64,000 nucleotides of DNA from an uncultured Bacteroidales bacterium (GTDB lineage Bacteria; Bacteroidota; Bacteroidia; Bacteroidales; UBA10428), in contig CAWGGG010000005.1 in assembly GCA_963822145.1 (NCBI GenBank), positions 221,899-285,898 on the forward strand. The letters are read 5' to 3'. The notes beneath the pieces were generated by a model. It did no database searches, had not been told where the DNA came from, and saw only the letters and a program-made list of their open reading frames with translations. The position numbers and the translations under genes were made by a program. Shown here piece after piece: positions 25,408 through 32,508 of this stretch (its first letter is position 1; each line of letters opens with the position of its first letter).

Positions 25408-26784
25408 ATGAGTGAAAAAGTCGGAAATATTCTTGCCGTAGATGACAATGAGGACATTCTGTTTGCGTTGAAGCTTTTGCTGAAACCTCATGTCGAAAAG
25501 TTAACCGTTTTAAATAGTCCGGATAAGATCCCGGAAATACTGGGCAAGGAGAATTTCGACATGATCCTGCTCGATATGAATTTCAATAAGGATGCCATTA
25601 GCGGGCAGGAGGGCTTTGATTGGCTGGGCAGGATACTGGAAATTGATCCCCAGGCTGTTGTGGTTTTCATAACCGCATACGGTGATGCCGAAAGGGCAGT
25701 AAAGGCCATTAAATCCGGCGCCACAGACTTTGTGCTGAAGCCCTGGCAGAATGAAAAACTACTGGCCACCATATCTTCTTCCATCAAGTTGAGGCGTTCG
25801 AGGCTCGAGGCCAATGATCTTCGCGCCAAGCAAAAAGAGATGAGTGCTGTGATGGACCAGCCGTTTACCGATTTCGTAGGCAGTTCGGCCAAGATGATGG
25901 AAGTATTCAATACCATTAAAAAAGTAGCACAGACCGACGCCAATATATTGATCCTGGGAGAGAACGGTACGGGAAAGGAGCTGGTTGCCCGTGCTTTGCA
26001 CCGCAATTCTCCCAGACGTGACGAAGTATTTATCAGTGTAGACCTGGGCTCGTTGAGCGATACCTTGTTTGAGAGTGAATTGTTTGGGCATGAAAGGGGA
26101 GCGTTTACCGATGCTAAAAAGGAAAAGCCGGGTCGTTTCGAAATAGCGTCCAAAGGAACGCTCTTTCTGGATGAGATCGGTAACCTGCCCATGCCGCTGC
26201 AATCGAAAATACTTACCGTTATTGAGCGGCATGAGGTAACCCGGGTGGGGGCAAACCGGCCCATCCCGGTGGATGTAAGATTGATCTGCGCTACCAACAG
26301 CGATCTTTATGAGACAGTGAGCAACAACCTGTTTCGGCAGGATTTGCTTTACCGTATCAACACCGTTGAAATACACCTTCCGCCCCTGCGGGAACGTGGC
26401 GACGATATTGAATTGCTCTCCAATCACTTCCTGAAAATCTATGCCAAGAAATACCGGAAGTCACTAAGATCGATCACCGCTGCAGCACTTAAAAAGCTGA
26501 TGCATTACGCCTGGCCGGGCAACGTACGGGAATTGCAGCATGCCATTGAAAGAGCGGTTATCATGACGGAAACCCCTTCTCTTGAACCAGAGGACTTTAT
26601 TTTATCACCCCCGAGAAAGAAATCAGGAGACCTTGAATTTGAGACCTATAACCTGGATGAGATCGAAAGACAGGTGATAGAAAAGGTCATGAAACAGAAC
26701 CAGGGTAATATTTCTCAGGCGGCACAGGAACTCGGACTTACCAGAACATCTTTATATCGCAGGATAGAAAAATATGGGTTTTAG
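25408..26784 (+). CDS. sigma-54-dependent response regulator (NtrC/Fis family)
   Basis: REC domain (ILAVDDNEDI...LLDMNF), AAA+ domain (ILGENGTGKE, GAFTDA variant of GAFTGA, LFLDEIG) and a C-terminal Fis-type HTH (NISQAAQELGLTRTSLYRRIEKYG). Confidence 0.9.
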   Translation: MSEKVGNILAVDDNEDILFALKLLLKPHVEKLTVLNSPDKIPEILGKENFDMILLDMNFNKDAISGQEGFDWLGRILEIDPQAVVVFITAYGDAERAVKAIKSGATDFVLKPWQNEKLLATISSSIKLRRSRLEANDLRAKQKEMSAVMDQPFTDFVGSSAKMMEVFNTIKKVAQTDANILILGENGTGKELVARALHRNSPRRDEVFISVDLGSLSDTLFESELFGHERGAFTDAKKEKPGRFEIASKGTLFLDEIGNLPMPLQSKILTVIERHEVTRVGANRPIPVDVRLICATNSDLYETVSNNLFRQDLLYRINTVEIHLPPLRERGDDIELLSNHFLKIYAKKYRKSLRSITAAALKKLMHYAWPGNVRELQHAIERAVIMTETPSLEPEDFILSPPRKKSGDLEFETYNLDEIERQVIEKVMKQNQGNISQAAQELGLTRTSLYRRIEKYGF

Positions 26785-28129
26785 AAACTACCGGCTGAAT
26801 ATTATTTTTCGTGTAATCCTGCTGGTTGCGACCATTTACCTGCTCTATTACACACTTAAATCAAACTTGTTTATTGCGCCTGTCATTGTGGCAGTTATTG
26901 TAATATTTCAGGTGGCCTCTCTCATCCGTTACCTGGATAAAACCAACCGGGAACTGACCAGTTTTCTGCAATCCATAAGGTTCTCAGAATTCACCCGCAC
27001 TTTCCAGATTGAAGGGATGGGGGGGACTTTCAATGAGTTGAACAAGGCCTTCAATGAAGTTATGCAGGATTTTCAGAAAGTGCGGGCCGAAAAGGAAGAA
27101 AGCTTTCATTACCTGCAGACAATTGTGCAGAATATTGATGTAAGTGTGATTGCCTACAGCGCCGATGGCAACATTGAACTCATCAATAAAACCGCCAAGA
27201 AACTTTTCCAACTGGCTACCATCCGGAATATCAAATCGCTGGAAACCCTCAGCGCAGAATTGGTGACTACCCTGCTGAACATCAAACCTGGCGAGAACAA
27301 ACTGGTCAAAATCCAGTTCGAGGACGACATGCTGCAGCTGGCCATTTATGCCTCTACGATCAAGGTAAAGGACAAGCTCATTTACCTGGTGACCATCAAG
27401 GATATACAGAATGTACTGGAAGAGCAGGAAACAGAAGCCTGGCAGAAACTCATCCGGGTGCTCACCCATGAGATCATGAACTCCATAACCCCCATTGCCT
27501 CTCTTTCCTCAACGCTCGATCTGATGCTGAAGGGGATGGTGGCCCAGGGCGACAAGGAATCGCTGGAAATGGACCGGGAATCGGTGGGTGAGATACAGGA
27601 AGCACTGCAGACCATCAACAAACGAAGCACCGGCTTGCTCCATTTTGTCAATACCTACCGGAACCTAACCCGCATTCCCAAACCCAATTTCAGGCTTTGC
27701 AGCATCAAGGAGCTCTTCGAAAATATCGAAAAGCTCATGGAGGATGAAATCCGTAAATGCGGGGTGGAGTTCACCGTCAGGGTTGATCCCGAAAGTCTTG
27801 AATTTACGGCTGACGATCAGCTGATCGAACAGGTGCTCATCAACCTGCTGAAAAATGCCATCCATGCACTCAACGGCAAACCATCAGGGAAAATCCAGCT
27901 GTTAGGATTCATAAACAAAAGAGGTCGCATCACCCTGCAGGTGATTGATAATGGTCCCGGTATCCTGAAAGATGTACTTGATAAAATCTTCATACCATTT
28001 TTCACCACCAAACCCTCCGGATCGGGGATCGGACTGAGTCTGTCCAAACAGATCCTGCGTTTGCACAATGCCACCATAACGGCACATTCGGAGCCTGATG
28101 TGGAAACGATTTTTACCATGACTTTTTAG
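26774..28129 (+). CDS. sensor histidine kinase
   Basis: Two N-terminal TM segments, H-box LTHEIMNSITPI, N/G boxes (LINLLKNAIHAL, DNGPGI, GSGIGLSL). It overlaps the regulator gene by 11 nt. Confidence 0.85.
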   Translation: MGFRNYRLNIIFRVILLVATIYLLYYTLKSNLFIAPVIVAVIVIFQVASLIRYLDKTNRELTSFLQSIRFSEFTRTFQIEGMGGTFNELNKAFNEVMQDFQKVRAEKEESFHYLQTIVQNIDVSVIAYSADGNIELINKTAKKLFQLATIRNIKSLETLSAELVTTLLNIKPGENKLVKIQFEDDMLQLAIYASTIKVKDKLIYLVTIKDIQNVLEEQETEAWQKLIRVLTHEIMNSITPIASLSSTLDLMLKGMVAQGDKESLEMDRESVGEIQEALQTINKRSTGLLHFVNTYRNLTRIPKPNFRLCSIKELFENIEKLMEDEIRKCGVEFTVRVDPESLEFTADDQLIEQVLINLLKNAIHALNGKPSGKIQLLGFINKRGRITLQVIDNGPGILKDVLDKIFIPFFTTKPSGSGIGLSLSKQILRLHNATITAHSEPDVETIFTMTF

Positions 28130-28222
28130 GCTAAAGACTTTTAGGCTAAAGGCTTTTAGGCTTAAGGCTTGAAGCATCAGGTAACAACCTGACAGCCTAA
28201 TAGCCTAACAGCCTACTAGTCT
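28128..28222. repeat. inverted pair of short-unit arrays: AGGCT-type x6 (28128-28169) and AGCCT-type x4 (28194-28222)
   Basis: AGGCT/AGACT recurs every 7-8 nt starting inside the kinase stop codon. After a 24-nt spacer the complementary AGCCT/AGTCT recurs every 8 nt. This could form an imperfect long hairpin. Confidence 0.85.
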
Positions 28223-28273
28223 AATTTAGATTCATTCTACAGAATAATACATATAAACATATCTATATTTATC

Positions 28274-28281
28274 TATATTTG
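28274..28281 (+). promoter_or_regulatory. Bacteroidota-type -7 box candidate (TATATTTG)
   Basis: Matches TAnnTTTG, 14 nt upstream of the ATG at 28296. It lies inside the direct repeat atctatattt x2 (28261-28280). Confidence 0.3.
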
Positions 28282-28295
28282 TAGCAAATTTCATC

Positions 28296-28943
28296 ATGGA
28301 TACATCATCGATCAATATCCGTTACTCCGCACTGGCAGAAGAGTCCTGCTGTCTTTCCTGCGGCAGTGCCATCAATTTCGCTGAACCTCAGCCCGGGGAA
28401 TGTTGCATGGACCTCGGCAGCGGCAGGGGAACCGACGCATTGCGCATGGCAGAAGCAGTAGGTGAGAAGGGTTTCGTTTTCGGCGTTGATGCATCGGACG
28501 GAATGCTGGAAACAGCACAAAAAAATGCTGAAAAGCTTGGCATTTCCAACATCAGTTTCATGAAGTCGGATCTCGAAAGAATTGCCATACCGGGTGGAAT
28601 TGTTGACCTGATCATTTCCAACTGTACCATCAACCACGCTGCTGACAAGGTAAAGGTATGGGGCGAAATCTTCCGTATGCTGAAAGGGGGAGGCCGGTTT
28701 GTGGTAAGCGACATCTACGCGGTTGCCCCGGTGCCGGAGGATTACCGTAATGACCCGGTAGCTGTTTCGGAATGCTGGGCAGGCGCCATTACCCGTGATG
28801 AATATTTACAAACGGTTGCCCGGGCAGGTTTTACTGGAATACAAATCCTGGAAGAAAGCAAACCCTATGCAAAAGGTAAGGCTGAAATTGTTAGTTTTAC
28901 TATCTTTGGCAGGAAAGAGAAAAAATGCAGTTGTTGTTCTTAA
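28296..28943 (+). CDS. ArsM-like class I SAM-dependent methyltransferase with Cys-rich tail
   Basis: SAM motif CCMDLGSGRGTD. ArsM-like blocks LSCGSAINFAEPQPGE, VDLIISNCTINHAADK, GGRFVVSDIY and SECWAGAITRDEY. C-terminus EKKCSCCS. Confidence 0.8.
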   Translation: MDTSSINIRYSALAEESCCLSCGSAINFAEPQPGECCMDLGSGRGTDALRMAEAVGEKGFVFGVDASDGMLETAQKNAEKLGISNISFMKSDLERIAIPGGIVDLIISNCTINHAADKVKVWGEIFRMLKGGGRFVVSDIYAVAPVPEDYRNDPVAVSECWAGAITRDEYLQTVARAGFTGIQILEESKPYAKGKAEIVSFTIFGRKEKKCSCCS

Positions 28944-28963
28944 ATAACTATCTATCAAATATC

Positions 28964-29062
28964 ATGAAATCGCTGATATCAAAAAAGAAATCTCAGAAGA
29001 AGCAGAAAGTTGCTCAATGTTGTGCCAAAACCTCAAAAGTTGTAGCCGGCTGTCACGACTGA
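28964..29062 (+). CDS. unannotated 32-aa Lys-rich, three-Cys peptide (candidate precursor/scaffold peptide)
   Basis: ATG at 28964 to TGA at 29060-29062 gives MKSLISKKKSQKKQKVAQCCAKTSKVVAGCHD. It starts 20 nt after the methyltransferase stop and ends 11 nt before the radical-SAM start. It is below the 60-aa ORF-track cutoff. Confidence 0.45.
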   Translation: MKSLISKKKSQKKQKVAQCCAKTSKVVAGCHD

Positions 29063-29073
29063 CCCTTTAAATT

Positions 29074-30390
29074 ATGGAGCTTTCCAGGCACAACATTCTT
29101 TCCAGGATCCATCGCTCCGATGAATACTTCCTGGTGAATGTGCTTTCGGGAAATGCAGATATACTCACCTCCTTGGAAGCTCAGCGGGTATTGGACAGAT
29201 GTGTGCTGAACGACCCGGAATACATCAGCAAAGGTTATGTTGTAGATCCGGCTCAGGAAGAAAAGGAATTCCGCATGAAATACCTCGATTTTCTGGATTC
29301 CAGGGATACAGATGAAATCCAGTTGTTTTACGTTCCATCCTTTGCCTGTAATTTCAGTTGCTCTTATTGTTACCAGGAAGGTTACCTGAACCAGGGCCCG
29401 GAATACGGCCCGGAAGTGGCCGATGCGTTCTTCACGTATTTGCAGATGAATTTCGCGTCAAGAAAGAAATACATTACATTATTTGGTGGAGAACCCTTGC
29501 TTGCCGGTCAGAAGAGCCGGGAATTCCTGGACTTTTTCACCAGGAGATGCCGGGAGTTGGATCTCGAACTTGCCGTGGTAACCAATGGTTATAACCTGGA
29601 GGAATATATACCCCTGTTATCGCGTACCCGGATACGGGAGATCCAGGTTACGCTTGACGGACCCGAGACTATTCATAACCTGCGCCGTCCCCTTAAAGGC
29701 GGACAGGGTACTTTCAGCAATATTGTTAGAGGCATTGACACTGCGTTGACTGCCGGATTACCAGTTAACTTAAGGGTGGTGCTCGATCGTGAAAATATCA
29801 CTGCTTTGCCTGAGCTGGCTCACCTTGCCATCAGCAAAGGCTGGACAGGGTCACCATTGTTTAAGACACAGCTGGGACGCAATTATGAATTGCACTTCTG
29901 CCAATCCAGGCAATCCAGTTTGTACTCAAGGATCGATCTGTACAGGGACCTGTATGAACTTATCCTGAAGGATCCCGGTCTGCTGCAATTTCATCGGCCG
30001 GCCTATTCCCTTTCGAAGTTTCTTTTTGAGAACGGTGAACTGCCGGCACCCTTATTTGATTCCTGCCCTGGCTGCAAAACCGAGTGGGCGTTTGACTATT
30101 CCGGCAGGATATTTTCCTGCACCGCCACCGTGGGGAAACCCGGCGAAGCGTTGGGTTCCTTCTGGCCCATCGTTGATTTGAACAAGCAACGTATTGAATC
30201 CTGGCAACAGCGTGATATACTGAGCATTTCGTCCTGCACTGGCTGTAACCTCAGGTTGGCTTGCGGAGGAGGATGCGCCAGTGTTGCCTTTAACCGTGAA
30301 GATAACCTGCATGCGCCGGACTGCAGGCCGGTTAAAGAATTGCTGGAGCTTGGAATCTCTTTATATTCAACACTTGAAAGTGAAGCGTGA
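29074..30390 (+). CDS. radical SAM / SPASM domain protein (peptide-maturase-type architecture)
   Basis: CX3CX2C at Cys92/96/99 (FACNFSCSYCYQ) after a ~90-aa N-terminal extension. C-terminal CPGC...SC...CTGCNLRLACGGGC (CX2CX5CX3C SPASM motif)...DC. Confidence 0.85.
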   Translation: MELSRHNILSRIHRSDEYFLVNVLSGNADILTSLEAQRVLDRCVLNDPEYISKGYVVDPAQEEKEFRMKYLDFLDSRDTDEIQLFYVPSFACNFSCSYCYQEGYLNQGPEYGPEVADAFFTYLQMNFASRKKYITLFGGEPLLAGQKSREFLDFFTRRCRELDLELAVVTNGYNLEEYIPLLSRTRIREIQVTLDGPETIHNLRRPLKGGQGTFSNIVRGIDTALTAGLPVNLRVVLDRENITALPELAHLAISKGWTGSPLFKTQLGRNYELHFCQSRQSSLYSRIDLYRDLYELILKDPGLLQFHRPAYSLSKFLFENGELPAPLFDSCPGCKTEWAFDYSGRIFSCTATVGKPGEALGSFWPIVDLNKQRIESWQQRDILSISSCTGCNLRLACGGGCASVAFNREDNLHAPDCRPVKELLELGISLYSTLESEA

Positions 30391-30438
30391 AGGGTTATGG
30401 TTGTTGCGAAAGATCTTGAATTAATTACTTAACATATT

Positions 30439-31710
30439 ATGAAAGAAATTGTAACGACTGATTTTGAAAAAGAAGTACTGCAGGGGGGTAAAGTCGTACT
30501 TGACTTTTATTCCACCGAATGTCCGCCATGTGACGCTTTGGCGCCAAAATTTGAATCCCTTGCCGACCTGTATGGTGAGGATATAACCTTTCTGAAGGTA
30601 TTTCGCCAGGGTAACCGTGATCTGGCAGAACGTCTGAGTGTCCACAGTTCTCCCACCCTAATATTTTTTGATCACGGGCATGAGGTGGGCATCCGTTTAA
30701 GCGGAGGGATCAAGCGCTCTGAAATCCTCCATAACCTGAATGCCATGCTGCCGGCAGAAAAGGTTTCTTCGATCAAAAGTCGCATTAAACCTCATACCAG
30801 TCCGTATGATGTTGCCATCATCGGCAGTGGGCCGGGTGGACTCACCGCCGGATTATACCTCTGCCAGGCACGTATCAATACAGTGCTGATCGATACAGGC
30901 CTGCCGGGCGGGCATGTCAGTCTTACCCACCAGGTATCCAATTATCCGGGTTTCATTGATCCTCAGCCGGGTTACCTGCTTTCACACAACATGTCGGAGC
31001 AGACCAAGAAATGCGGCAGTGTATTTAAGGTAGCAGTGGATGTTACCCGCGTTGATCTTGTGAATAAGGAAATTGTCATTGATGATTTTGAAACGGTTCG
31101 GGCCAGGAAGATCATCATTGCCACCGGGACCTCCCCGAACTACCTTAATATACCCGGTGAGAAGGAGTTCAAAGGGAAGGGAATATCTTATTGCGCCACC
31201 TGTGATGCCAAGTATTATGGTGATAAAGAGGTTGTCGTTATCGGAGGAGGCAATTCTGCAGTGGAAGAGGCCGAGTTTATTACCAAATTCGCCTCCAAAG
31301 TAACCATGGTGCACCAGTTTGATAAGTTTCAGGCCAACAGGCAGGCCCAGGAGAAATTGCTGGCCAATCCGCGTGTGCAGGTATTGTTCCGTCACGAACC
31401 CCGGTCCTTTGTCCGCCAGGGCGACAAAATGATTGTTACCGTCGAAAAACTGGAGAACGGAAATCTCAGTGAACTGATCACGGACGGCATTTTCATTTTT
31501 GTGGGATTAAAGCCCAATATCGATCTTTTCGGAGGGGCACTTACGCTTGATGACTGGGGTTACCTGAAAACAGATGAGGATATGCGGACAAACCTTCCGG
31601 ATGTATATGCCGTTGGAGATGTCAGAAGCAAAAAATACCGGCAGATCACTACAGCCATAGCCGATGGGACTATTGCTGCCATCAGCATCACGAGGGAACT
31701 GGATAGCTGA
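30439..31710 (+). CDS. thioredoxin-fold domain fused to thioredoxin-disulfide reductase-like flavoprotein
   Basis: N-terminal ~105 aa is a Trx fold with CPPC (VLDFYSTECPPCDAL). It is followed by DVAIIGSGPGGLTAG (FAD), CATCDA (redox disulfide), VIGGGNSAVEEA (NADPH) and YAVGDV. Confidence 0.8.
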   Translation: MKEIVTTDFEKEVLQGGKVVLDFYSTECPPCDALAPKFESLADLYGEDITFLKVFRQGNRDLAERLSVHSSPTLIFFDHGHEVGIRLSGGIKRSEILHNLNAMLPAEKVSSIKSRIKPHTSPYDVAIIGSGPGGLTAGLYLCQARINTVLIDTGLPGGHVSLTHQVSNYPGFIDPQPGYLLSHNMSEQTKKCGSVFKVAVDVTRVDLVNKEIVIDDFETVRARKIIIATGTSPNYLNIPGEKEFKGKGISYCATCDAKYYGDKEVVVIGGGNSAVEEAEFITKFASKVTMVHQFDKFQANRQAQEKLLANPRVQVLFRHEPRSFVRQGDKMIVTVEKLENGNLSELITDGIFIFVGLKPNIDLFGGALTLDDWGYLKTDEDMRTNLPDVYAVGDVRSKKYRQITTAIADGTIAAISITRELDS

Positions 31711-31869
31711 TGGCGTGTTAAACTTTTGTTAAAATCGGCATATTAAGATCCTGGTTTTCTTTCTCTTATTGCATGAATAGCCCTTGCCGGAGCATCATGA
31801 TTTGAACCTGGCAGGGATTATTGTGTTTAATGTATATTAATTAATTTGAAACAAAAAAATGACTGCATT

Positions 31870-32508
31870 ATGAACATGAAAAGAATATCTCACGGAATTG
31901 CTGCACTCCTGCTGCTTTTTTCAGTTTCAGCAAATGTCTTGCTGGCTCAGAAACAAAATGCCTCAAACAAGTTTGCTATCAATACAGCCGATAGTAAAGT
32001 GAACTGGATGGGCAAAAAACCAACCGGGGAACATACAGGTTATGTTAAACTTTCCAGTGGCGAAATCCTCCTGGAGAAGAAAGAAATCAAGGGAGGCTCA
32101 TTTGTAATTGATCTCAATACAATTATCAATACCGATTTGAAAGATGAAGGTATGAATGGCAAGTTGGTTGGACATCTGAAATCACCTGACTTTTTTGATG
32201 TGGCCAAATATCCCACGGCCAGATTTGTGATTACCAAGGTCACCAAAGCTCCAGAGACGACTGCAGGCGCTCCAAAAGCTACCCATACCATCGAGGGAGA
32301 CCTCACCATCAAGGGAATCACCAAGAAAATCAGGTTTGATGCCAGTATCAATGAATTGAACGGCAAGGTAACGGCAAGCACGGCCCCCTTCACTATCGAC
32401 CGAACCCTTTGGGGGGTTAATTACCAGTCTAAGTCGGTTTTTGCCGAACTGAAAGATCAGTTCATTTATGACGACATGACATTGTCTATTGACCTGGTCA
32501 CCCAATAA
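31870..32508 (+). CDS. YceI family periplasmic protein
   Basis: Signal peptide from ATG 31870 (the track start at 31846 is TTG). YceI-like pattern KVNWMGKKPTGEHTGYVK...GDLTIKGITKKIRFDA. Confidence 0.75.
   Translation: MNMKRISHGIAALLLLFSVSANVLLAQKQNASNKFAINTADSKVNWMGKKPTGEHTGYVKLSSGEILLEKKEIKGGSFVIDLNTIINTDLKDEGMNGKLVGHLKSPDFFDVAKYPTARFVITKVTKAPETTAGAPKATHTIEGDLTIKGITKKIRFDASINELNGKVTASTAPFTIDRTLWGVNYQSKSVFAELKDQFIYDDMTLSIDLVTQ

What the first reader, a model, noticed from the sequence alone, without database searches (positions are those of the whole stretch)
29074..30390. Radical-SAM enzyme with a ~90-aa N-terminal extension and a full SPASM domain
Seen: the Cys92/Cys96/Cys99 triad (FACNFSCSYCYQ) comes after a 90-residue N-terminal region (…YFLVNVLSGNADILTSLEAQRVL…). 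That region resembles the start of peptide-modifying rSAM maturases, where a precursor-recognition (RRE-like) element lies. The C-terminus carries CPGC, SC, CTGCNLRLACGGGC and DC, enough cysteines for two auxiliary clusters. Established: anaerobic sulfatase maturases and most small-molecule rSAM enzymes start almost directly with the CX3CX2C motif. Inference: the substrate is a peptide, and the adjacent 32-aa product is the obvious candidate.
Basis: partly seen in the sequence, partly recalled or inferred. Interest (0 to 1): 0.6.

Follow-up and report, generated by a model that had tools for sequence, protein, structure and literature searches.

The report
Peptide-modifying radical-SAM enzyme, undescribed family
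This gene encodes a radical-SAM enzyme built like known peptide-crosslinking enzymes, and it always sits next to a tiny, almost invariant three-cysteine peptide gene in a four-gene cassette, found in many anaerobic bacteria, for which I found no description.

Summary
ORF 29074-30390 encodes a 438-aa radical-SAM protein with Cys92/96/99 after a ~90-residue N-terminal domain. It carries the full seven-cysteine SPASM motif (C331, C349, C388, C391, C397, C401, C417), which scores above the cutoff of the curated SPASM model TIGR04085.

AlphaFold2 predicts the N-terminal domain with high confidence as three strands followed by three helices, the RiPP-recognition-element (RRE) topology. The whole model matches CteB, the RRE-bearing SCIFF thioether maturase, best and over its full length. 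The isolated domain's only likely matches are TbiB1, a leader-binding RRE, but that match is weak. No sequence profile sees PqqD.

All top family matches are peptide maturases (CefB, TIGR04463, Clo7bot, PapB), and all score far below their cutoffs. This is therefore an uncurated family.

In 85 of 85 fetched loci from six or more phyla, the enzyme follows a peptide gene with an invariant core, AQCCAKxSxxxxGCHD, alongside an ArsM-like methyltransferase and a thioredoxin/thioredoxin-reductase fusion. A Clostridia/Atribacterota sister family, including cultured Acetivibrio cellulolyticus, keeps the same cassette.

The chemistry is untested; thioether crosslinking is the most likely reaction. The scan has noted this cassette before in other genomes.

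The parts
29074..30390 (+). Radical SAM/SPASM enzyme gene (438 aa), single copy in this genome
   Evidence: ORF; Pfam Radical_SAM 69 bits; AF2 pLDDT 87.4, pTM 0.86; only one orthologue in the genome
29074..29310 (+). N-terminal RRE-like domain (residues 1-79): three strands then three helices; acidic (median net charge -7)
   Evidence: AF2 secondary structure and pLDDT about 95; Foldseek matches to TbiB1 RRE, prob 0.96, and full-length to CteB; invariant N22, L24, D29, G54, Y55, E62, Y70, E81; charge
29347..29370 (+). CX3CX2C motif (C92, C96, C99) for the SAM-binding [4Fe-4S] cluster
   Evidence: Sequence; invariant in 51 + 123 sequences
29317..29883 (+). Radical SAM partial TIM-barrel core (residues about 82-270), including the F137-GGEP-L142 SAM motif
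   Evidence: Pfam PF04055 residues 87-251; alternating strands and helices in the AF2 model; invariant G138, G139, E140, P141
29875..29904 (+). Invariant loop G268-R-N-Y-E-L-H-F-C276-Q277 after the last barrel strand; low model confidence; candidate active-site loop or fourth ligand of auxiliary cluster I
   Evidence: Invariant columns; pLDDT below 50 at 272-277; C276 kept in the sister family and in 50/124 distant relatives
30064..30324 (+). SPASM domain with seven conserved Cys (331, 349, 388, 391, 397, 401, 417) for two auxiliary Fe-S clusters
   Evidence: TIGR04085 41.2 bits, cutoff 27; Cys conservation; structural alignment with CteB and anSME
28964..29062 (+). 32-aa precursor-like peptide gene: basic leader MKSLISKK..., variable linker, invariant core AQCCAKxSxxxxGCHD-stop
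   Evidence: Present in 85/85 loci; invariant residues encoded by all synonymous codons in 82 distinct DNAs; leader conservation and charge
28296..28943 (+). Short ArsM-like SAM methyltransferase (215 aa) with invariant Cys18/19/22/37/110/160 and a Cys-rich C-terminal tail
   Evidence: NF008823 190 bits, cutoff 263; present in 84/85 loci; Cys conservation
30439..31710 (+). Thioredoxin (N-terminal) fused to thioredoxin reductase (C-terminal)
   Evidence: PF00085 + PF07992, TIGR01292 309 bits; present in 81/85 loci

Best explanation
The gene encodes a peptide-modifying radical SAM/SPASM maturase with CteB-like architecture. An acidic N-terminal RRE-like winged-helix domain would dock the basic, conserved leader (MKSL[I/V]KK) of the 32-aa peptide encoded just upstream. 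The radical-SAM core would cleave SAM to a 5'-deoxyadenosyl radical that abstracts a hydrogen atom from the invariant core AQCCAKxSxxxxGCHD. The two SPASM auxiliary Fe-S clusters would hold a substrate cysteine and take up the electron. The most likely product is one or more intramolecular Cys-S-to-carbon thioether crosslinks (ranthipeptide-type). The modified peptide probably stays inside the cell, because no protease or exporter is conserved with it, and it probably works with the co-conserved ArsM-like methyltransferase and the Trx-TrxR fusion. Shown here: the domain architecture, the cluster motifs, the family placement among peptide maturases and the strict gene linkage. Inferred: leader binding by the N-terminal domain, the identity of the substrate, and the reaction type. 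I put about 0.8 on 'peptide maturase acting on this peptide' and about 0.4 on thioether formation specifically.
For: Architecture: CX3CX2C, the GGEP motif and seven SPASM Cys are invariant; TIGR04085 is above cutoff. AF2 model pLDDT 87.4; N-terminal domain beta-beta-beta-alpha-alpha-alpha at pLDDT about 95. Foldseek: CteB (5why, 5wgg) is the top match, E 4e-17, with 455-476 aligned columns, against 385 for anSME, which has no RRE. TbiB1 RRE-leader complexes are the only probable matches of the isolated domain. Sequence: the best PDB match by phmmer is CteB. The best NCBIfam matches are CefB (full length, 1-431), TIGR04463, Clo7bot, PapB, geopeptide, DynA, nif11, FlmE/OhkG, QhpD, SCIFF and YhhB maturases. 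From my own knowledge, PapB, CteB and QhpD are experimentally shown thioether formers. Linkage: the peptide gene lies directly upstream in 85/85 loci from Bacteroidota, Spirochaetota, Ignavibacteriota, Myxococcota, Deltaproteobacteria-labelled MAGs, Chloroflexota and one Hyphomicrobiales MAG. The core residues are invariant while every synonymous codon is used. The leader is conserved with median charge +5, against -7 for the N-terminal domain. A sister family at 41-43% identity in Clostridia and Atribacterota keeps the same cassette and nearly the same core (AQCCSKSSKVVAGCH[D/N]). A distant relative is fused to an ArsM-like methyltransferase.
Against: There are no biochemical data. No sequence profile recognises the N-terminal domain as PqqD/RRE. 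The isolated-domain fold match is weak: E 8e-3, TM 0.35, and no match below E 1e-3. One relative (P0237) has this N-terminal domain and also a canonical C-terminal PqqD domain, so the N-terminal domain may not always be the leader binder. The invariant extra C276 could complete the ligation of auxiliary cluster I, as in anSME, which would differ from the open site that CteB uses to bind the substrate Cys. I could not inspect the model coordinates. The extreme conservation of the core across phyla and the absence of a protease or exporter are untypical of RiPP natural products. The ArsM-type Cys triad in the partner methyltransferase hints at metalloid chemistry that plain thioether formation does not explain.
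Confidence: 0.7

Rival explanations
1. The substrate is the same peptide but the radical chemistry is different. Candidates are Cys C-beta oxidation or heterocycle formation (anSME-like or SbtM-like), epimerisation with C276 as hydrogen donor, a C-C or C-O crosslink, or formation of a carbon-metalloid bond on a peptide whose three thiols hold As(III) or a similar soft metalloid, which the ArsM-like enzyme then methylates.
For: The invariant loop GRNYELH[F/Y]C276Q sits after the last barrel strand, which is the active-site side. Known rSAM epimerases use such a Cys as hydrogen donor (my own knowledge). The partner methyltransferase keeps invariant cysteines in the ArsM-type motif contexts and adds a Cys-rich tail. 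Sister enzymes are fused to DUF5714, which matches the 'metal-binding double selenoprotein MbdU' model at 113 bits. A CsoR-type repressor flanks the cassette in L087 and L089. DynA, YhhB and GrrM (C-C and C-O crosslinkers) are also among the matches.
Against: The closest characterised relatives by sequence and by fold (CteB, PapB, QhpD) make thioethers. No ars genes or metalloid transporters are conserved next to the cassette. No precedent exists for SPASM enzymes forming carbon-metalloid bonds (my own knowledge).
Confidence: 0.2
2. The enzyme's true substrate is not the small peptide. It could be a protein partner, for example the Cys-rich tail of the methyltransferase or the Trx domain, or a small molecule. 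The peptide would then be a separate thiol carrier or metallochaperone.
For: Most methyltransferase orthologues end in a CC-rich tail that resembles the peptide (one ends CGCHN). anSME and QhpD show that SPASM enzymes can modify proteins (my own knowledge, and for the structural similarity).
Against: The methyltransferase tail is variable and is missing in about a dozen orthologues, whereas the peptide is present in 85/85 loci with an invariant core and a conserved leader. The N-terminal RRE-like domain and the basic leader are what a leader-dependent peptide maturase needs. Matches to small-molecule rSAM enzymes (MoaA, viperin, BlsE) are weaker and lack the N-terminal domain.
Confidence: 0.07
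3. It is an anaerobic sulfatase-maturating enzyme (anSME) homologue that makes formylglycine in a sulfatase.
For: anSME is the second-best structural match (E about 1e-13, TM 0.61) and a significant sequence match.
Against: TIGR03942 scores 59 bits against a cutoff of 349. anSME lacks the 90-residue N-terminal domain. No sulfatase gene is linked in any of the 85 loci. The genome has a separate, distant rSAM/SPASM gene elsewhere.
Confidence: 0.02

Closest known systems
CteB / SCIFF system (Clostridium thermocellum; PDB 5wgg, 5why; NCBIfam TIGR03974)
   Same: Same three-part architecture: N-terminal RRE-like domain, radical-SAM core and SPASM domain with two auxiliary clusters. It is the best structural match (full length) and the best PDB sequence match. 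The substrate is a short Cys-containing peptide encoded beside the enzyme. That peptide is highly conserved across many species, and no dedicated protease or exporter is present (the last two points from my own knowledge of SCIFF).
   Different: Only 17-18% identity. TIGR03974 scores 66 bits against a cutoff of 425. The peptide is unrelated to SCIFF: three Cys, core AQCCAKxSxxxxGCHD, no family match. The enzyme has an extra invariant Cys276. The cassette obligatorily includes an ArsM-like methyltransferase and a Trx-TrxR fusion.
CefB (NF038107) and TIGR04463 Cys-rich-peptide rSAM/SPASM maturases
   Same: These are the best-scoring curated families. CefB aligns over the full length, including the N-terminal domain (residues 1-431 to profile 1-430). 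Both are predicted to act on Cys-rich peptides.
   Different: Scores are 138 and 121 bits against cutoffs of 600 and 525, so the enzyme is not a member. These families are themselves known only from genomics, and their target peptides differ.
PapB / freyrasin and QhpD (thioether-forming rSAM/SPASM enzymes)
   Same: Homologous core and SPASM domain (PapB aligns 91-411 to profile 12-326 of 330). They link Cys sulfur to Asp or Glu carbons, and the peptide here ends in Cys-His-Asp.
   Different: PapB has no N-terminal domain of this kind in the alignment. It scores 94 bits against a cutoff of 340, and QhpD 71 against 453. The sister family tolerates Asn instead of the terminal Asp, so an Asp carboxylate is not strictly required.
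anSME (PDB 4k36-4k39)
   Same: Radical-SAM core plus SPASM domain with two clusters; second-best structural match.
   Different: anSME has no N-terminal RRE-like domain, it acts on sulfatase proteins, and the family threshold is not met.
MftC/MftA and PqqE/PqqA (peptide-derived redox cofactors)
   Same: An rSAM/SPASM enzyme acts on a short peptide with an invariant C-terminal core, the product stays inside the cell, and the system is conserved across phyla.
   Different: Those systems use a separate RRE protein (MftB, PqqD) and dedicated peptidases (my own knowledge). MftC scores only 56 bits against a cutoff of 265. No peptidase is conserved here.

Membership tests
Radical SAM superfamily | CX3CX2C cluster motif and SAM-binding GGE motif in a partial TIM barrel | tested here: met
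   C92/C96/C99 and G138-G139-E140-P141 are invariant; PF04055 scores 69 bits against a cutoff of 29.5; barrel seen in the AF2 model
SPASM-domain rSAM enzymes | C-terminal seven-Cys motif CX9-15GX4C ... CX2CX5CX3C ... C, recognised by the curated domain model | tested here: met
   C331-x12-G344-x4-C349, C388-x2-C391-x5-C397-x3-C401 and C417 are all conserved in 51 orthologues and 120-123 of 124 aligned sequences (123 distant relatives plus the query); TIGR04085 scores 41.2 bits against a cutoff of 27. Pfam's SPASM model gives no match
SPASM-domain rSAM enzymes | Two auxiliary [4Fe-4S] clusters actually bound | not testable with these tools
   Needs Fe/S analysis, EPR or a structure; the model coordinates could not be inspected for ligand geometry
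RRE-containing RiPP maturases (CteB-like) | N-terminal winged-helix RRE fold (three strands followed by three helices) | tested here: met
   AF2 gives beta7-11, beta18-22, beta27-31, alpha33-40, alpha48-52, alpha59-79 with pLDDT about 92-97; full-length alignment with CteB; TbiB1 RRE is the top match of the domain alone (prob 0.96, E 8e-3, TM 0.35). This is a predicted fold only
RRE-containing RiPP maturases (CteB-like) | Sequence homology of the domain to PqqD/RRE profiles | tested here: not met
   No PF05402 match in any of 50 N-terminal domains at E up to 10; hhalign against one verified PqqD domain gives prob 0.2. No RRE-Finder-type profiles were available
RRE-containing RiPP maturases (CteB-like) | Co-encoded precursor peptide with a conserved leader and core | tested here: met
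   85/85 loci; leader MKSL[IV]KK and invariant core
RRE-containing RiPP maturases (CteB-like) | Leader-dependent modification of the peptide | not testable with these tools
   Requires a binding assay and an activity assay
SCIFF maturase (TIGR03974) | Score above the curated cutoff, and a SCIFF-family six-Cys peptide partner | tested here: not met
   66.4 bits against a cutoff of 425; the peptide matches no NCBIfam family
CefB (NF038107) / TIGR04463 | Score above the curated equivalog cutoff | tested here: not met
   137.8 bits against 600 and 121.1 against 525. The nearest 50%-identity cluster representatives also fall below every cutoff
anSME (TIGR03942) | Score above cutoff, motif near the N-terminus, linked sulfatase | tested here: not met
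   59.3 bits against 349.45; 90-residue N-terminal domain; no sulfatase among the recurrent neighbours
MftC (TIGR03962) / PqqE | Score above cutoff, with a separate RRE protein and a peptidase in the cluster | tested here: not met
   MftC 55.8 bits against 265; PqqE is not among the top 25; PqqE ranks 46th by fold; no such neighbours

The most novel reading that the evidence does not exclude
The enzyme does not make an exported natural product. It matures an intracellular, universally conserved three-thiol peptide that serves as a carrier or cofactor for soft metal(loid) chemistry. The crosslinked or otherwise modified peptide presents a metalloid such as As(III), or a similar thiophilic species, to the ArsM-like methyltransferase, and the dedicated Trx-TrxR fusion recycles its thiols. 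In the extreme version the radical-SAM step itself forms a peptide carbon-metalloid bond.
Probability: 0.2. Interest if true: 0.9.

Novelty: new variant of a known kind. Interest (0 to 1): 0.6.

Why it matters
The enzyme's architecture is the well-known RRE / radical-SAM / SPASM maturase plan. The family, however, is not covered by any curated model. Its peptide partner is invariant across at least six phyla, and more so than the enzyme itself: 100% in the core against about 55% for the enzyme. It is also locked to an arsenite-methyltransferase-like enzyme and a private disulfide reductase.

That pattern fits a housekeeping peptide cofactor or metal(loid)-handling module of anaerobes better than an antibiotic. 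If confirmed, it would add a new class of intracellular modified peptide and might link RiPP-type radical chemistry to metalloid methylation in anoxic sediments and guts. The presence of the cassette in cultured Acetivibrio cellulolyticus makes it directly testable.

Tried and rejected
- Pfam on the whole protein, on the C-terminal 119 and 178 residues, and on 50 isolated N-terminal domains gave no SPASM (PF13186) or PqqD (PF05402) match. The SPASM question was settled by TIGR04085. The PqqD negative stands.
- hhalign of the N-terminal profile against the one Pfam-verified PqqD domain available (C-terminus of P0237) gave probability 0.2. This is a weak test with a single sequence.
- Foldseek with the isolated domain gave no match below E 1e-3. 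Apart from TbiB1, the list is noise (retroviral integrase cores and the like).
- The promoter/terminator scan of 28000-32000 found nothing above the shuffled expectation.
- Literature searches found no description of the cassette. The search for 'CefB' returned only unrelated acronyms. The Bacteroidales RiPP-mining paper PMC10352776 does not mention thioredoxin, arsenite or this peptide.
- Haft & Tolstoy 2025 (mSystems; it defines MbdU and MduS) is not held, so I could not check whether it touches on related neighbourhoods.
- An SSN or tree with AlbA, Tte1186, QhpD, PqqE and MftC reference sequences was not built, because those sequences could not be fetched. HMM bit-score ranking was used instead.
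- I could not read the AF2 coordinates, so it remains open whether C276 or C334 reaches auxiliary cluster I.
- The anSME reading and the small-molecule rSAM reading were rejected on family thresholds and gene context.
Full report
**Observation.** The window holds an ORF at 29074-30390 (+) of 438 aa. It reads ...LFYVPSFAC92NFSC96SYC99YQ... after about 90 N-terminal residues. Directly upstream, 11 nt before the start codon, lies a 32-codon ORF (28964-29062) encoding MKSLISKKKSQKKQKVAQCCAKTSKVVAGCHD. The gene is clearly real. A word-indexed search found more than 120 clusters of full-length homologues at 57-95% identity, all about 437 aa and all named only 'radical SAM protein' or 'uncharacterized'. 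An exhaustive HMMER search of 50%-identity representatives found 518 clusters at E<1e-30.

**Domain anatomy: core and SPASM.** Pfam sees only Radical_SAM (residues 87-251) and Fer4_12. An alignment of 51 orthologues (A1) shows several invariant features:
- C92, C96 and C99;
- the SAM motif F137-G-G-E-P-L142;
- eight further cysteines: C276, C331, C349, C388, C391, C397, C401 and C417.

Seven of these fit the SPASM pattern (C331-x12-G344-x4-C349; C388-x2-C391-x5-C397-x3-C401; C417). They are also conserved in 120-123 of 124 aligned sequences (123 more distant relatives plus the query). C334 is not conserved (36/51). C276 is invariant in orthologues and kept in 50/124 of those aligned sequences. 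Pfam's SPASM model finds nothing even on the isolated C-terminus. The curated NCBIfam SPASM domain model TIGR04085 matches residues 334-414 at 41.2 bits, above its cutoff of 27. So 'full SPASM domain' is confirmed at the sequence level.

**Domain anatomy: the N-terminal region.** AlphaFold2 on A1 gave a confident model (mean pLDDT 87.4, pTM 0.86). Residues 1-79 form beta7-11, beta18-22, beta27-31, alpha33-40, alpha48-52 and alpha59-79, with block pLDDT of 94-97 up to residue 70 and 84 for residues 71-80. This is the three-strand, three-helix order of RiPP recognition elements. The same elements appear when the domain is folded alone from its own 50-sequence alignment (A2; pLDDT 87.4).

**Fold comparisons.**
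- Foldseek of the full model against the PDB puts CteB, the SCIFF thioether maturase that has an N-terminal RRE, first (5why, 5wgg; E 4e-17 to 9e-16; 455-476 aligned columns; TM 0.66).
- Next come anSME (about 385 columns; it has no N-terminal domain), SuiB, BlsE, ChlB and SkfB. PqqE ranks 46th.
- The isolated domain finds TbiB1, the lasso-peptide RRE crystallised with its leader peptide, as its five best matches. These are the only matches with probability above 0.5. The match is weak, however (best E 8e-3, TM 0.35, no match below 1e-3).
- Sequence profiles do not recognise the domain. None of 50 domains matches PqqD in Pfam, and hhalign against one verified PqqD domain gives probability 0.2.

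The RRE assignment therefore rests on predicted topology and on the CteB-like whole-protein match, not on detectable homology. The most conserved residues lie in beta2-beta3 (N22, L24, A28, D29) and in alpha3 (E62, Y70, L71, F73, R77). From my own knowledge of RRE complexes, this is the groove where leaders bind.

**Family placement.**
- NCBIfam ranks CefB first (137.8 bits, aligned over residues 1-431). TIGR04463, Clo7bot, PapB, geopeptide, DynA, nif11, FlmE/OhkG, QhpD, SCIFF and YhhB maturases follow. anSME is 12th, MftC 14th, and MoaA and viperin are lower still.
- Every score is far below its curated cutoff.
- The nearest 50%-identity cluster representatives also belong to no named family.
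- By phmmer the best solved structure is CteB, at E 6e-9.

The protein thus groups with peptide-modifying enzymes but forms an uncurated family.

**Gene linkage.** Eighty loci from one-genome-per-species contigs (of 416 confirmed) plus five from metagenome look-ups were examined. They come from Bacteroidales and other Bacteroidota, Spirochaetota, Ignavibacteriota, Myxococcota, Deltaproteobacteria-labelled MAGs, Chloroflexota and one Hyphomicrobiales MAG.
- All 85 carry, directly upstream of the rSAM gene, a small ORF with the core AQCCAKxSxxxxGCHD followed by a stop. Three of them use a non-ATG start.
- In 82 distinct DNA versions the eleven fixed residues never change, while all synonymous codons are used: four for Ala, six for Ser, and all three stop codons. 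This is strong purifying selection on a translated product.
- The leader M-K-S-L-[I/V]-K-K is conserved, and a variable linker follows it.
- The leader carries a median net charge of +5, against -7 for the N-terminal domain of the enzyme.
- The ArsM-like methyltransferase is present in 84/85 loci and the Trx-TrxR fusion in 81/85. Some of the missing cases lie at contig ends (for example L009 and L080), while in others, such as L007 and L056, the fetched locus extends about 3 kb beyond the rSAM gene without a TrxR match.
- No protease or exporter recurs. Occasional extras are DUF1847 (22 loci), DUF6132 (16), DUF302 (14) and MarR (10).
- In the window's own genome the gene is single-copy.
- In the same order, 33 of 201 sampled genomes have it, scattered across families. 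Identity across phyla (55-60%) is no lower than within the order. This suggests horizontal spread.

**Sister family.** Relatives at 41-43% identity are common in Clostridia and occur in Atribacterota. They are often fused at the C-terminus to DUF5714. DUF5714 matches the NCBIfam model 'metal-binding double selenoprotein MbdU' at 113 bits. Four loci were read, including cultured Acetivibrio cellulolyticus (GCA_000179595.2). Each keeps the methyltransferase, the Trx-TrxR fusion and a peptide of the form MKKVTK...CC..F.TAQCCSKSSK[VI][VL]AGCH[D/N]. The core is therefore almost unchanged while the enzyme has diverged to about 42% identity. C276 and its loop (GRNYELFDC) are kept as well. One more distant relative is fused to an ArsM-like methyltransferase that is 37% identical to the window's. 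Another carries an additional C-terminal PqqD domain.

**Mechanism.** The best-supported reading is a leader-dependent peptide maturase. The acidic RRE-like domain binds the basic leader. The radical-SAM cluster generates the 5'-deoxyadenosyl radical, a hydrogen atom is abstracted from the core, and the SPASM clusters assist. Because the closest characterised relatives (CteB, PapB, QhpD) make Cys thioethers and the core has three invariant Cys, thioether crosslinking is the most likely reaction. This is inference, at about 0.4.

Other chemistry on the same peptide stays open:
- the invariant flexible loop ending in C276 sits on the active-site side of the barrel, and could be a hydrogen donor, a base, or the fourth ligand of auxiliary cluster I;
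- the methyltransferase keeps invariant cysteines in the ArsM-type motif contexts (C22, C110, C160) plus C18, C19, C37 and a Cys-rich tail;
- the sister family adds a metal-binding-type domain and, in two loci, a CsoR-type repressor.

Together these hint that the matured peptide serves intracellular soft-metal(loid) or thiol chemistry rather than acting as a secreted product.

**Comparison and novelty.** In architecture this is a member of the known kind 'RRE / radical-SAM / SPASM peptide maturase'. It fails the thresholds of SCIFF maturase, CefB, TIGR04463, PapB, QhpD, anSME and MftC, so I file it under none of them. The obligatory coupling to an ArsM-like enzyme and a private Trx-TrxR, the missing protease and exporter, and a core more conserved than its enzyme make it a new variant. 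I found no description in the searchable literature. One possibly relevant paper (Haft & Tolstoy 2025) is not held.

The scan has noted the same cassette before, in this genome and in four other genomes, with the same reading. Those are unchecked AI notes. I re-derived the linkage here myself.

**Limits.** All functional statements are predictions.

Noticed in passing
L086:4001-7716 (Acetivibrio cellulolyticus GCA_000179595.2); L087, L088, L089: A sister cassette occurs in Clostridia and Atribacterota. The rSAM/SPASM enzyme is often fused to DUF5714 (similar to the MbdU 'metal-binding' model) and is accompanied by the ArsM-like methyltransferase, the Trx-TrxR fusion and a five-Cys peptide MKKVTK..CC..F.TAQCCSKSSKVVAGCH[D/N]. 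In A. cellulolyticus the gene order is rSAM, methyltransferase, peptide, TrxR.
   Followed up: partly
L087:7458-7607, L089:6524-6670, L086:9094-9240: A conserved 48-49-aa four-Cys protein (MFT.SL.EKE..LLKKSI.HCL.TC..GG...GCTDC...) lies next to the sister cassette. In L087 and L089 a CsoR-type metal-sensing repressor gene (PF02583) follows it.
   Followed up: no
window 28296-28943: The ArsM-like methyltransferase has invariant Cys18, 19, 22, 37, 110 and 160 across 82 orthologues. It also has a variable Cys-rich C-terminal tail (CSCCS, CCCC; one ends CGCHN, resembling the end of the peptide). About a dozen orthologues lack the tail.
   Followed up: partly
P0158 (792 aa) and P0237 (611 aa), distant relatives: P0158 is a natural fusion of this type of rSAM/SPASM enzyme to an ArsM-like methyltransferase that is 37% identical to the window's. 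P0237 keeps the N-terminal domain and also has a canonical C-terminal PqqD domain.
   Followed up: partly
loci L003, L010-L012, L042-L046, L070-L085 and others: Accessory genes recur beside the cassette: DUF1847 (22 of 84 loci, sometimes inserted between the rSAM gene and the TrxR gene), the small Cys-containing membrane protein DUF6132 (16), DUF302 (14) and MarR regulators in spirochaetes (10). No DUF1847 or DUF5714 match was found in the window's own genome.
   Followed up: partly
own genome, contig C1:583665-584729 (-), outside the window: A second, distant rSAM/SPASM-like reading frame (29% identity over residues 80-423) contains one in-frame TGA. It could be a pseudogene, a frameshift or a selenoprotein.
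   Followed up: no
window 28128-28295: The spacer between the histidine-kinase gene and the methyltransferase gene holds AGGCT/AGCCT repeats that form a hairpin, followed by an AT-rich stretch with TATATTTG shortly before the ATG. From memory this resembles the Bacteroidetes -7 promoter element. The sigma-70 scan found nothing above chance.
   Followed up: no
window 25408-28129 and L001:1327-4048: A sigma-54 response regulator and histidine kinase pair lies directly upstream of the cassette, here and in the closest relative (L001) only. It is not a conserved part of the cassette.
   Followed up: partly
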